A stretch of DNA of 14,013 nt from a virus. Below, piece by piece: positions 6,001-9,000 of this stretch. The position numbers were made by a program. The stretch lies in the UHGV virus genome UHGV-1734115; one strand, written 5' to 3'. Within the stretch, counting starts at the first letter, position 1. Every line of letters begins with the position of its first letter.

Positions 6001-9000
6001 GTGAATTTAGTCTGGATAGCCATAAGTGTTTTATCCATTTTTGGGAACTCCTGGCTGATTAAGTATGTCGATAAGGCGTTTCCATCCATCACGTAATTTA
6101 CGTGTGATTCGTTCAAGTAAAGATTCGGAAGGGCAGCCAGCAACAGGCCACCCTGCAATGGCATATTGCATGGTGTGCTCCTTATTTATACATAACGAAA
6201 ACGCCTCGAATGAAGCGTTATTGGTATGCATATAAAAAAGCCCTCACATTGGAGGGCAAAGAAGATTTCCAATAATCAGAACAAGTCGGCTCCTGTTTAG
6301 TTACGAGCGACATTGCTCCGTGTATTCACTCGTTGGAATGAATACACAGTGCAGTGTTTATTCTGTTGTTTATGCCAAAAATAAAGGCCACCATTAGGCA
6401 GCCTTGTTGTTCTGTTTACCAAGTTCTCTGGCAATCATTGCCGTCGTTCGTATTGCCCATTTATCGACATATTTCCCATCTTCCATTACAGGAAACATTT
6501 CTTCAGGCTTAACCATGCATTCCGATTGCAGCTTGCATCCATTGCATCGCTTGAATTGTCCACACCATTGATTTTTATCAATAGTCGTAGTCATACGGAT
6601 AGTCCTGGTATTGTTCCATCACATCCTGAGGATGCTCTTCGAACTCTTCAAATTCTTCTTCCATATATCACCTTAAATAGTGGATTGCGGTAGTAAAGAT
6701 TGTGCCTGTCTTTTAACCACATCAGGCTCGGTGGTTCTCGTGTACCCCTACAGCGAGAAATCGGATAAACTCTATTCACCCCTACAGAGAGCAAAAGAGA
6801 AACGCCGATGAACAACTCATGGTGGCAGGAACTAATGCATTTTTTCCTGCAAGGAATGACACTTAAACAGTTGATTCATATGCTAATCATCCTGATCATA
6901 TTGATTATTGTTATGCCGGTAAGCGTAAAAGAATGGATAAACCTGCATAATCCAGAAATCCTTCCTTATTATTGGATGTATTACATCCTGTTGTTCTGCG
7001 TTAGCTATGTGCTTAACGGTGTTGTTAATTCCGCTTATCACGCTGTGACTGAAAGAATTGAGGTATCCGCTGCTCAGAAGCGCAAATCTAAAGAAGAAAA
7101 ATATGTGCAAGATTTGTTTGATTCGTTAACTCTTGGAGAAAGAGCGTATTTGGCATTCGCTGTAGCCGCGAATAACCAGCTAAAGACAGAAAAGGGAAGC
7201 CCTGAAGCAATCTCATTGCTCGAAAAAGGGCTTCTTATTCGGATACCTTCTGCTACTGGATATCCTGAAATCGACCGTTTTGTTATCCCGGAACGCTATA
7301 GAAATGAGTGCTACATTCGGTTTGCCGGGAAGGCAGACAGCCTTATGGATGAACTTATCGCTCAGGATAAGCATGGCAAAAACAAGTAATTAGCAAATGA
7401 ATTTATCATCTCGCCGTCAGTTGTTTTGATTTCCGGTAGCCTGCCGCGTAAAGAGCTACGTTCGGAAGACAAGTTGAACCTTCATATTTTCTGGTCAACG
7501 TTGTCAGAGTTATCACTTCTGCTCTCATTGCTGGTTTGCGCTTGCATTGCAAGACCACTCGTGAAGGGGTTGGCCTGTGTAGCTTGTCGGAGCTGATCGC
7601 CTCCTGACTTTGCAGATTTGCGCGACGCTCTCTACGGCGAGAAGCTGCGGTTCCTTTAAATTCTGTTTTTCTGGACATGGATTCCTCCCGAATAAACTCT
7701 GGCGATGCAATCCCGAAGCTACTCCTGAGAGAGTTGCTTCGGCATTGCATCCCACAGCTTATGTGGTTGGGTGATCTGGCTTTTCAGCCACGTAGTCGAG
7801 TGTTCGACGTTGTTTAAAGAGCCTGCCAGTCTGTTCCGTTTGGCTTACAGCGTCCTGCTGATGAGTTAACTTTATCGAAATGATAAATTAATGGCAATAG
7901 CAAAATGATAAATTGTTTTAGTTTTCAAATATCCTGTTGATTATTATGGTTTTTTATTTGATTGCAGGAATTTATCAGAAGGAATAAAGAGACTTGAGGG
8001 GGATCAGAATTGCGCGTTTTAGTGAGTTGTATCTGTTTATTTTTCAACAAATACAATTGGTTATGGTGTTATTAGGTGTGGGGATCGTGAGGCAAAGAAA
8101 ACCCGGCACTGAGGCCGGGTGTGTATTAGGGGGTTGAGACTCCAGAGAGCAATCCGTAGATTTTATATACAGTAAATGCTAATGCTGGCAAGCCAAGGGC
8201 CCATTTGATTATATCAAGCTTAACATCACTAAGCTTACCTTCTAACTTTGCCTCTTGAACAGAAAGAGCTGCATCGATCTTTTTTGATTGGGAGTCAAGG
8301 GCACTCTCAATTCTACTCGATTGTATGTCCAGACGACTGTTGATTTGTTCGTGCTGAGTAACAACTAAATGCTTCATCTCCTTTATATCTGAAGCCATTA
8401 GTTCACGCCATTTGGCCATATCAGCCTGCATTTTTGAGGCCACTGCATCCACTTCAGCTTTATTTGCCTTCAGAAGTGCCTGTATTTCGTTTCTGCTCAA
8501 ATCGGACATTGCGGTTCCCTGTATAGGAGTTTCCTCGTACGGTGGGATAACATTAGATTGTCCTTTACAATCGGCAACCCCTCCTTTATCTACGATTGTA
8601 GCAGTTAGCTGGGAATTGGTCGCATCATCCACCATGTTTTTTGGTGAATAAGAGGAAATAGGCGTAGAAAACAGATTACCTTTTGCTGTTTCCATGAACA
8701 TCATGAAATCGCGAGTATTAACGTTATTCAGGGAAACTTGCAGTGGTTTAACAATACTTGATGTTTTGTAAGTAATAGTTAAATCACCTACTTCTTCCGG
8801 TTGTTGCATTACGACTTCGCTCCATTAGAGTTTTGTGCCTCTAATTGTTCGAAAAGAAGAACTATATTCTCTTGAAGAGCCTTTAGTTGTGCCATTGGCA
8901 TTATCACAGTGCATTGCTGATTGAGTTCATTTACAGAGCCTATCTGCATATTCGCTCTACCTGGTTGATCTGGTATATCATTTTGGGATAGTACCGCAGG

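What the first reader, a model, noticed from the sequence alone, without database searches (positions are those of the whole stretch)
6578..6664. Unannotated 28-aa highly acidic, Tyr-rich peptide ORF overlapping the start of a Cys-rich small protein
Seen: ATG at 6664 with AAGGTGA upstream encodes MEEEFEEFEEHPQDVMEQYQDYPYDYDY (about half the residues are D/E, plus multiple Y/F); its 3' end overlaps the start of the 66-aa Cys-rich gene (6394..6594) out of frame. Inference: small acidic phage peptides in early operons can act as DNA mimics or anti-defense/host-takeover factors; alternatively it could be a leader peptide coupling translation of the Cys-rich gene. It could also be a chance ORF.
Basis: inference. 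Interest (0 to 1): 0.5.

Follow-up and report, generated by a model that had tools for sequence, protein, structure and literature searches.

The report
Phage lambda orf28 acidic microprotein
The 28-codon reading frame is phage lambda's long-listed but never-studied gene orf28: comparison of many related phages shows selection has kept its very acidic peptide, nearly always beside a gene that helps phages escape bacterial DNA-cutting defences, so it is probably a real small protein whose job is still unknown.

Summary
It is identical, base for base, to phage lambda orf28 (lambdap47, NP_040623). The Cys-rich gene it overlaps is ral, the restriction-alleviation gene. It is not a chance ORF. Among 152 distinct ral loci it is intact in 147. 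In codons 2-19, inferred changes fall 22/13/134 on codon positions 1/2/3, and dN/dS is about 0.13-0.15, the same as for ral. In-frame indels and ATG/GTG start swaps keep the frame, and a Shine-Dalgarno site is kept in unrelated flanks. It matches PHROG 16060 (unknown function), has no Pfam or NCBIfam model, and PGAP does not call it in E. coli genomes. Homologues also occur without ral: alone after N, and overlapping the 3' end of an unrelated Lar-family restriction-alleviation gene. Their Tyr-rich tail is conserved there too, so the peptide itself is under selection, not only its translation. Best reading, inferred: a translated accessory microprotein of a two-cistron restriction-alleviation cassette, with its translation probably coupled to ral. 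No experiment on its function was found. The DNA-mimic idea remains untested. Interest is moderate, because a known but neglected gene may bear on the unsolved Ral mechanism.

The parts
6578..6664 (-). orf28 coding sequence (28 codons plus TGA), identical to lambda orf28/lambdap47
   Evidence: Searches show identity to NC_001416 34271-34357. It matches PHROG 16060 at E=7e-19. Omega is about 0.13-0.15.
6668..6674 (-). Shine-Dalgarno site AAGGTGA of orf28, three bases before the ATG
   Evidence: A GAGGTGA, AAGGTGA, AGGGGA, GAGGGT or GGAGCT site is kept upstream of the start in all lineages, even where the flanking sequence is unrelated. In Salmonella phages 118970_sal4 and Oslo the same site and ATG start a different 121-149-aa gene.
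6394..6594 (-). ral, the restriction-alleviation protein Ral (66 aa), the 'Cys-rich small protein' of the finding
   Evidence: Pfam PF11058 at 162 bits. phrog_1055. About 98% identical to lambda ral at the DNA level.
6578..6594 (-). 17-nt out-of-frame overlap. The ral ATG (6594-6592) lies inside orf28 codons 24-25, and the orf28 stop lies 14 nt downstream of the first base of the ral ATG.
   Evidence: The same geometry is found in nearly all homologous loci.
6603..6606 (-). Weak Shine-Dalgarno site (AGGA) of ral, encoded by orf28 codons Q20-D21, eight bases before the ral ATG
   Evidence: Read from the sequence. It is kept as CAGGAY or CAGGAA in the homologues.
6561..6590 (-). Predicted mRNA hairpin (ACUAUUGAU-AAAA-AUCAAUGGU) starting 4 nt after the ral AUG, with the orf28 stop codon in its 5' arm
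   Evidence: It is predicted in most homologues, with one U-A to C-G double change in L118. It overlaps a conserved Ral coding stretch, so this is weak evidence.
6384..6405 (-). Terminator-like hairpin plus T-run straddling the ral stop codon
   Evidence: A similar hairpin directly follows the orf28 homologue in the ral-less loci L355 and L458.
6808..7389 (+). sieB (superinfection exclusion), transcribed divergently. It separates orf28 from N here, as in lambda and P22.
   Evidence: Pfam PF14163 and phrog_1301. In many relatives sieB is absent and orf28 follows N within about 20-30 nt.
7406..7750 (-). N antiterminator gene, which places orf28-ral as the first cistrons after N in the leftward early (pL) operon
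   Evidence: Pfam PF25694 and phrog_271.

Best explanation
This is phage lambda's gene orf28, a real protein-coding gene. It encodes a 28-residue peptide with net charge -9 to -13 across homologues. The consensus is M-E-[ED]-[ED]-[FI]-E-E-F-[ED]-E-H-P-x-D-[VD]-M-x-Q-Y-Q-D-Y-P-Y-[DE]-Y-D-Y. It is the first cistron of a two-cistron cassette, orf28-ral, placed directly after N in the early leftward operon. Shown here: the frame, start site and amino-acid sequence are under purifying selection as strong as on Ral. The peptide is also retained in loci that lack ral. Inferred: (1) ribosomes finishing orf28 stop 14 nt past the ral AUG, inside a hairpin next to it, so translation of ral with its weak AGGA site is probably coupled to orf28. 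(2) The peptide is an accessory factor of restriction alleviation. It would bind either the basic zinc-type partner (Ral, or Lar in one lineage) or their target, the type IA restriction-modification enzyme, through its conserved aromatic and acidic residues. It is not sufficient for alleviation on its own.
For: The frame is intact in 147 of 152 distinct ral-linked segments, giving 58 distinct DNA versions and 39 distinct peptides. In codons 2-19, parsimony changes by codon position are 22/13/134. Omega is 0.13, against 0.129 for ral and 1.8-2.3 in the shifted frames. Seventeen of 18 third positions vary, against 5 first and 8 second positions. Pooled pN/pS is 0.15 for orf28 and 0.18 for ral. 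The Pro12 codon occurs as CCT, CCA, CCG and CCC. Indels are all in frame, giving peptides of 23-26 aa, and ATG and GTG starts interchange. E7, F8, H11, P12, D14, M16, Y19 and Y22 are invariant. A Shine-Dalgarno site is kept in unrelated flanks, and mosaic junctions fall just upstream of it. Homologues exist without ral. In L355 and L458 the order is N, orf28-like, terminator. In 9 viral contigs, some of them also recovered in the metagenome scan, the peptide overlaps the 3' end of a Lar-family gene (PF14354, 36.7 bits) that shows no detectable homology to Ral (hhalign probability 0.7%). In those loci the tail QYQDYP[FY]DYDY differs from lambda by 6 synonymous changes and 1 conservative change, although no ral overlaps it. 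For coupling, the evidence is the overlap geometry and the predicted hairpin. In the two Ral loci without orf28, the ral start overlaps another upstream ORF as ATGA. In the literature, the mechanism of Ral and Lar is described as unknown (PMC3177214). A ral clone that starts at orf28 codon 16 gave little alleviation (PMC9410887).
Against: No translation or peptide data could be retrieved, and the lambda ribosome-profiling paper is not held. orf28 is dispensable for plaque formation on a non-restricting host (PMC10695390). The association with Ral is largely one inherited cassette, so independent associations number only two (Ral, Lar) against one stand-alone arrangement. An AlphaFold model of a natural orf28-Ral fusion was low-confidence, with mean pLDDT 64 and about 50 over the peptide, so it gives no support for docking. 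Three loci carry disrupted orf28 next to intact ral (L129, L132, L211), and two Ral lineages lack it (L150, L161), so Ral does not strictly need it. The weak effect of the truncated ral clone has other explanations, such as expression level or Ral being intrinsically weaker than Ocr.
Confidence: 0.5

Rival explanations
1. orf28 is only a translational leader. What matters is that ribosomes translate it and deliver or unmask the ral start. The peptide has no function of its own.
For: There is a 17-nt overlap, a weak ral Shine-Dalgarno site inside orf28, and a predicted hairpin just after the ral AUG that contains the orf28 stop. Ral loci lacking orf28 still overlap an upstream ORF as ATGA. orf28 is non-essential.
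Against: A leader of this kind needs no particular sequence, yet omega is about 0.13-0.15 with eight invariant residues. The peptide, including its C-terminal tail, is conserved in loci where nothing is translated downstream of it: L355, L458 and the Lar-linked loci, each followed by a terminator. Synonymous divergence in orf28 is as high as in ral, so there is no hidden nucleotide-level constraint.
Confidence: 0.12
2. orf28 is an independent anti-defence or host-takeover peptide: an acidic nucleic-acid mimic that blocks a DNA- or RNA-binding host protein unrelated to Ral's target. Its position next to ral would be only operon history.
For: Net charge is -9 to -13, with conserved aromatics spaced as on amphipathic segments. 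It occurs stand-alone after N in L355 and L458. It sits in the early operon. There is a precedent for very small phage peptides acting on restriction systems: T4 Stp, a 26-mer (PMC12707154).
Against: At 28 residues it is far shorter than characterised DNA mimics such as Ocr or ArdA. The model is low-confidence and largely unstructured. It has no Pfam or NCBIfam relatives. Ral-targeted knock-down alone makes lambda restriction-sensitive (PMC10695390), so orf28 does not protect against EcoKI by itself. Its replacement partner in another lineage is again a restriction-alleviation gene.
Confidence: 0.2
3. orf28 is a regulatory nascent peptide. Its N-terminal run MEEEFEE makes ribosomes abort early (intrinsic ribosome destabilisation, as in MgtL), so that the flow of ribosomes into ral depends on Mg2+ or on the ABC-F factor EttA.
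For: Five of the six residues after Met are Glu. This is the class of N-termini shown to abort translation in E. coli (bioRxiv 10.1101/2021.02.02.429294). EttA rescues pausing at acidic residues within the first 30 residues (PMC11282234). The acidic N-terminus is kept through E/D exchanges.
Against: This explains conservation of charge but not the invariant H11, P12, M16, Y19 and Y22, nor the Tyr-rich tail in ral-less loci. The conserved bulky F5 and F8 would be expected to counteract destabilisation according to the same preprint. There are no data for this peptide.
Confidence: 0.1
4. Chance ORF with no function.
For: Short ORFs are frequent in this region. PGAP does not call it.
Against: All the conservation results argue against it.
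Confidence: 0.03

Closest known systems
Phage lambda orf28 (lambdap47, NP_040623.1), the founding member of PHROG 16060
   Same: Identical DNA and protein. Same position overlapping the ral start by 17 nt, downstream of N and sieB.
   Different: Nothing differs. The window is a mosaic lambdoid phage, not lambda itself, with a Sak4-like/SSB recombination module and other immunity genes. No function has been assigned to orf28 in the sources searched. It is listed only as hypothetical and non-essential.
[quoted passage not shown]
   Same: A phage peptide of under 30 residues linked to type I restriction-modification (PMC12707154). It shows that such a small product can be functional.
   Different: No sequence comparison was run. 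By my own recollection Stp is not acidic. The Stp target is type IC, whereas Ral and Lar act on type IA. Any target of orf28 is inferred, not shown.
DNA-mimic anti-restriction proteins Ocr (T7) and ArdA (plasmids)
   Same: Strongly acidic, expressed early, and directed at type I enzymes (PMC9410887, PMC3874165).
   Different: Those are folded proteins of more than 100 residues that imitate a stretch of B-DNA. orf28 has 28 residues, no confident fold and no family match. It appears insufficient for alleviation without Ral.
MgtL-type acidic N-terminal leader peptides (intrinsic ribosome destabilisation)
   Same: A short upstream ORF whose first six residues after Met are almost all acidic, positioned to affect a downstream gene.
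   Different: MgtL controls transcription attenuation of mgtA and is not conserved as a protein beyond its acidic/Pro start. orf28 is conserved along its whole length and also exists with no downstream cistron.
Overlapping, translationally coupled small gene pairs (for example type II antitoxin-toxin operons)
   Same: A small acidic upstream product overlaps the start of a small basic downstream product (Ral net charge about +3, counted from the sequence). Lar of Rac is reported to be a toxic DNase (PMC4041452).
   Different: No toxicity of lambda Ral is documented in the sources read. In the Lar-linked lineage the peptide gene lies downstream of its partner, not upstream.

Membership tests
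Lambda orf28 / PHROG 16060 | Sequence match to the family profile and to the lambda protein | tested here: met
   phrog_16060 at E=7.1e-19 over 28/28 positions. The translation is identical to NC_001416 orf28.
Lambda orf28 / PHROG 16060 | Position: overlaps the 5' end of ral, downstream of N (with or without sieB) | tested here: met
   The same arrangement is found in 147 of 152 distinct loci.
Protein-coding gene (as opposed to chance ORF) | Substitutions concentrated at third codon positions, dN/dS well below 1 in this frame only, and indels in multiples of three | tested here: met
   Changes fall 22/13/134 on positions 1/2/3. Omega is 0.13, against 1.8-2.3 in the other frames. pN/pS is 0.15. 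In-frame indels are seen.
Protein-coding gene (as opposed to chance ORF) | Direct evidence of translation (ribosome footprints or peptide detection) | not testable with these tools
   The lambda ribosome-profiling paper is not held. No paper containing the peptide sequence was found.
DNA-mimic anti-restriction proteins (Ocr/ArdA type) | High density of surface carboxylates | tested here: met
   12 of 28 residues are D/E. Net charge is -9 to -13 across 39 variants.
DNA-mimic anti-restriction proteins (Ocr/ArdA type) | Stable fold presenting charges in a B-DNA-like array long enough to fill the enzyme's DNA site | tested here: not met
   It has only 28 residues. In the AlphaFold model of the natural fusion P0011, the peptide has pLDDT of about 50 with only a 6-residue helix.
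DNA-mimic anti-restriction proteins (Ocr/ArdA type) | Homology to a known mimic family | tested here: not met
   No Pfam or NCBIfam hit.
DNA-mimic anti-restriction proteins (Ocr/ArdA type) | Binds and inhibits a type I enzyme | not testable with these tools
   This needs biochemistry or plating assays.
Sequence-independent leader ORF for translational coupling | The stop of the upstream ORF lies within a few tens of nucleotides of the downstream start | tested here: met
   The stop lies 14 nt downstream of the first base of the ral AUG.
Sequence-independent leader ORF for translational coupling | The peptide sequence is free to vary, and the ORF exists only together with the downstream gene | tested here: not met
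   Omega is about 0.13-0.15 with eight invariant residues. The ORF is present without ral.
MgtL-like ribosome-destabilising leader | D/E/P-rich six-residue window after the initiator Met | tested here: met
   In MEEEFEE, 5 of the 6 residues are acidic. The criterion is from the preprint read.
MgtL-like ribosome-destabilising leader | Premature abortion of translation that depends on Mg2+ | not testable with these tools
   This needs reporter fusions or in vitro translation.
T4 Stp-like peptide | Sequence similarity to Stp | not tested

The most novel reading that the evidence does not exclude
orf28 is the missing second component of Ral/Lar-type restriction alleviation. In this reading, the acidic, Tyr-rich peptide binds the type IA enzyme or the Ral-enzyme complex. 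Together with the zinc-type partner it switches EcoKI from cutting unmodified DNA to methylating it. That would explain why the Ral mechanism has stayed unresolved when ral is studied alone.
Probability: 0.2. Interest if true: 0.75.

Novelty: already known. Interest (0 to 1): 0.42.

Why it matters
Lambda is the best-studied temperate phage, yet this 28-codon gene has only ever been listed as hypothetical. About one in six complete E. coli genomes carry the orf28 region (885 of 5426), and in every RefSeq row checked it was left uncalled. Reviews describe the mechanism by which Ral and Lar turn a type I restriction enzyme into a de novo methylase as unknown (PMC3177214). This analysis shows a microprotein conserved as strongly as Ral, sitting on the ral start codon and, in another lineage, on the end of a Lar-family gene. 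That makes a simple hypothesis testable with a few lambda point mutants and a synthetic peptide. It also has a practical side: ral expression constructs that omit orf28 codons 1-15 performed poorly (PMC9410887).

Tried and rejected
tblastn against phages gave no match, probably because of the low-complexity filter. I therefore collected homologues through Ral and through a degenerate DNA pattern.
2. The genome-contig scan returned mostly lambda DNA contaminating unrelated assemblies and added little diversity.
3. Gene-caller products fusing orf28 to Ral (P0001, P0005, P0011) suggested a programmed +1 frameshift. Cluster look-up showed they are single-contig 1-nt or 13-nt deletion variants, with no slippery site, so I rejected the idea.
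4. I tested RNA structure as the reason for conservation. The region folds better than shuffles (z = -3.2). However, the long-range helix pairing the two start regions is made of positions fixed by coding and is absent from most homologues' minimum-energy folds. Synonymous divergence is as high as in ral, and there is no Rfam match. I rejected structure as the main explanation. The hairpin after the ral AUG is kept only as weak support for coupling.
5. The antisense ORF at 6526-6693 (+) is rejected, because the variable positions are its second codon positions.
6. The AlphaFold model of the natural fusion P0011 had too low confidence to use or to search with. The second structure job and the fold searches were not used.
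7. Literature: the lambda ribosome-profiling paper could not be opened. The lambda interaction-map paper does not mention orf28 or ral. No paper holds the peptide sequence.
8. Ral and the Lar-like protein were tested for remote homology, and none was found.
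Full report
**Observation.** On the minus strand, an ATG at 6664 opens a 28-codon frame that ends with TGA at 6580-6578. It encodes MEEEFEEFEEHPQDVMEQYQDYPYDYDY. AAGGTGA lies three bases upstream of the ATG. The last 17 nt overlap, out of frame, the start of the 66-aa ORF at 6394-6594. The description is therefore accurate. An ORF of this size is not unusual in itself: 36 ORFs of at least 25 aa overlap the surrounding 2.3 kb.

**Identity.**
- The window is 100% identical to phage lambda from about 6786 to about 6400.
- The ORF translates identically to lambda orf28 (lambdap47, NP_040623.1; NC_001416 complement 34271-34357). 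It is also a CDS in J02459.
- The overlapped gene is ral, the restriction-alleviation gene (Pfam PF11058, 162 bits; phrog_1055).
- The neighbours are sieB on the opposite strand, N, cIII with its Rfam thermometer, and kil.
- The window as a whole is a mosaic lambdoid phage rather than lambda. It has a Sak4-like/SSB recombination module, and no complete E. coli genome matches more than 57% of it.
- orf28 matches PHROG 16060, a 28-position profile of unknown function (E=7e-19). It has no Pfam or NCBIfam model.
- The orf28 region (a 141-nt query spanning orf28) occurs in 885 of 5426 complete E. coli genomes. In all 25 rows of that search that were listed, RefSeq annotates only Ral or a neighbouring gene there. 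The BL21(DE3) locus inspected in detail likewise has no orf28 CDS.
- 'Unannotated' is thus true of bacterial genome annotation but not of lambda itself.

**Is it a gene?** I collected ral loci from phage records and IMG/VR using Ral and three divergent Ral homologues as queries.
- Of 311 loci, there were 152 distinct segments. orf28 is intact in 147.
- It is disrupted in three: two nonsense mutations and one deletion. It is replaced by another ORF in two.
- There are 58 distinct DNA versions and 39 distinct peptides.
- On a neighbour-joining tree, inferred changes in codons 2-19 (upstream of the ral ribosome site and overlap) fall 22/13/134 on codon positions 1/2/3.
- Omega is 0.13, against 0.129 for ral codons 7-60 and 1.8-2.3 when the same bases are read in the two shifted frames.
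- Seventeen of 18 third positions vary, against 5 first and 8 second positions. Over 66 pairs of divergent representatives, pS is 0.82 and pN is 0.13, a ratio of 0.15, against 0.18 for ral.
- Pro12 uses all four codons. Length variants of 23-26 aa are all in frame. ATG and GTG starts interchange.
- A Shine-Dalgarno site is kept where the flanks are unrelated.
- Mosaic junctions in phage 21-like, BTP1-like and ST64T-like phages fall 10-25 nt before the ATG.
- In Salmonella phages 118970_sal4 and Oslo, the same ribosome site and ATG-GAA-GAA start a different 121-149-aa gene. That supports this site as a genuine initiation site.
- Synonymous change per synonymous site is as high in orf28 as in ral, so the conservation is at the protein level and is not a hidden nucleotide constraint.
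- The antisense ORF (6526-6693 +) has its second codon positions at the variable sites, so it cannot explain the pattern.

**Peptide features.** E7, F8, H11, P12, D14, M16, Y19 and Y22 are invariant in the 39 variants. Acidic positions exchange E and D freely. Net charge ranges from -9 to -13.

**Relation to ral.** The ral AUG lies in orf28 codons 24-25. Its only ribosome site is AGGA, eight bases upstream, encoded by Q20-D21. The orf28 stop lies in the 5' arm of a hairpin that begins four bases after the ral AUG. That hairpin is predicted in most homologues, with one compensatory U-A to C-G change. This geometry is what translational coupling would need, but the evidence is only predictive. 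In the two Ral lineages without orf28, the ral start overlaps the stop of a different 66-aa ORF as ATGA. This fits ral generally depending on upstream translation.

**The peptide outside the ral context.** I scanned IMG/VR and JGI metagenomes with a degenerate pattern for the conserved core. This found three further arrangements.
- **Stand-alone after N.** In L355 and L458 the order is N, ribosome site, MEEDFDEFDEHPDDDMS[RL]YQDYED, stop, terminator hairpin. There is no ral.
- **Linked to a Lar-family gene.** This arrangement is seen in nine viral contigs, some of them also recovered in the metagenome scan. The Lar-like proteins are 87-99% identical to the query. (V/M)G[ED][DG][ED]FEEHPDDDMSQYQDYP[FY][DE][YF]D[YS] overlaps the 3' end of the gene and is followed by a terminator. 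The gene is Lar-family (PF14354, 36.7 bits against a cut-off of 28.6; phrog_599). It shows no detectable homology to Ral (hhalign probability 0.7%). One contig has ATG where the others have GTG, which fixes the start. The tail region there differs from lambda by six synonymous changes and one Y-to-F change in eleven codons, although no ral overlaps it. The Tyr-rich tail is therefore conserved for the peptide's own sake.
- **Next to a broken ral.** At least nine loci carry a frame-shifting internal deletion of ral, and one carries a ral nonsense mutation. All have intact orf28.

More distant Lar-like genes, including Rac-type ones, have no such ORF.

**What is known.**
- Ral and Lar alleviate restriction and enhance de novo methylation by type IA enzymes, and their mechanism is described as unknown (PMC3874165; PMC3177214).
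- In a CRISPRi screen, orf28 is non-essential. Ral becomes conditionally essential on hosts with active EcoKI (PMC10695390). A block at ral should not affect the upstream orf28, so orf28 alone does not protect. This is an inference.
- A recombineering study cloned 'ral' with a primer that begins at orf28 codon 16. That clone gave little alleviation compared with Ocr or ArdA (PMC9410887). This is compatible with a need for intact orf28 but has other explanations.
- Deletions of orf28-ral have been used as a neutral cloning site (PMC2327257).
- No paper was found that studies orf28 itself.

**Mechanism.**
- Gene status: I put the probability that orf28 is a real gene at about 0.9.
- Most likely function: an accessory microprotein of a restriction-alleviation cassette, whose translation also feeds ral. 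Combined statement, about 0.5.
- Rival, independent acidic mimic or host-takeover peptide: 0.2.
- Rival, pure leader: 0.12. It is contradicted by protein-level selection and by the ral-less loci.
- Rival, ribosome-destabilising regulatory leader: 0.1. Five of the six residues after Met are Glu, the class shown to abort translation in E. coli. This does not explain the conserved remainder of the peptide.
- Rival, chance ORF: 0.03.
- Structure: an AlphaFold model of a naturally occurring in-frame orf28-Ral fusion (P0011) was low-confidence (pLDDT 64 overall, about 50 over the peptide). It neither supports nor excludes docking.

**Novelty and score.** The feature is already known as an annotated hypothetical ORF of lambda and as a PHROG. 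What this analysis adds is threefold. It shows that the ORF is under selection as strong as Ral. It shows that the ORF is systematically missed in bacterial annotations. And it shows that the ORF is linked to two unrelated restriction-alleviation families. Interest is moderate (0.42). It would rise substantially if the peptide proved to be a cofactor in the unresolved Ral/Lar mechanism.

Noticed in passing
window 6744-6760 and 6778-6794 (+ strand): There are two copies of a 17-nt direct repeat (ACCCCTACAGCGAGAAA and ACCCCTACAGAGAGCAA), 34 nt apart, between orf28 and the sieB start. The region corresponds to the annotated sieB promoter of P22. It could be a regulatory site.
   Followed up: partly
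window 779-868 (- strand): Rfam match to sRNA-Xcc1 (RF02221) at 62.9 bits, above the gathering score, far from the finding.
   Followed up: no
window 6126-6184 (- strand): Rfam Lambda_thermo, the cIII translational thermometer, at 88.5 bits. The cIII-like and kil-like ORFs overlap as in lambda.
   Followed up: no
L009-L024, L027, L029, L030, L032 (genome contigs): Ral stretches 100% identical to the query turn up on short, often low-coverage contigs (some about 48 kb) in assemblies of unrelated bacteria such as Nocardioides, Paenibacillus, Bradyrhizobium and Vibrio. This looks like lambda spike-in or laboratory contamination of public assemblies.
   Followed up: no
L400, L420, L428, L436, L328, L330, L331, L334, L381, L033: A recurrent ral allele carries an internal frame-shifting deletion between the short repeats GGACAAT and GGGCAAT. 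It truncates Ral after WCGQ while orf28 stays intact. L391 has a ral nonsense mutation with intact orf28.
   Followed up: partly
P0001, P0005, P0098, P0011 (proteins): Gene callers produced orf28-Ral fusion proteins from single contigs carrying a 1-nt deletion in CAGGAC or a 13-nt deletion. They are rare variants, not evidence of frameshifting.
   Followed up: yes
L316 757-1122 and L317 758-1207: In Salmonella phages 118970_sal4 and vB_SosS_Oslo, the upstream region, ribosome site and first three codons of orf28 (ATG GAA GAA) are joined to a different 121-149-aa, apparently membrane, protein. The mosaic junction therefore lies inside codon 3-4.
   Followed up: partly
L150 404-804 and L161: A Ral lineage lacks orf28. 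N is followed by a 66-aa ORF of unknown function (MAKITFGFCGAEK...), whose stop overlaps the ral start as ATGA.
   Followed up: partly
Primer 4576 in the supplement of PMC9410887: The published 'ral' expression construct starts at orf28 codon 16 (ATGGAACAATACCAGGACTATC), so it lacks the orf28 ribosome site and its first 15 codons. That construct gave little restriction alleviation.
   Followed up: partly
window 4467-5731 (- strand): The recombination module is a Sak4-like ATPase plus an SSB-like protein, not lambda exo/bet/gam. The window is therefore a mosaic that shares only the orf28-ral, cIII and kil stretch with lambda.
   Followed up: no
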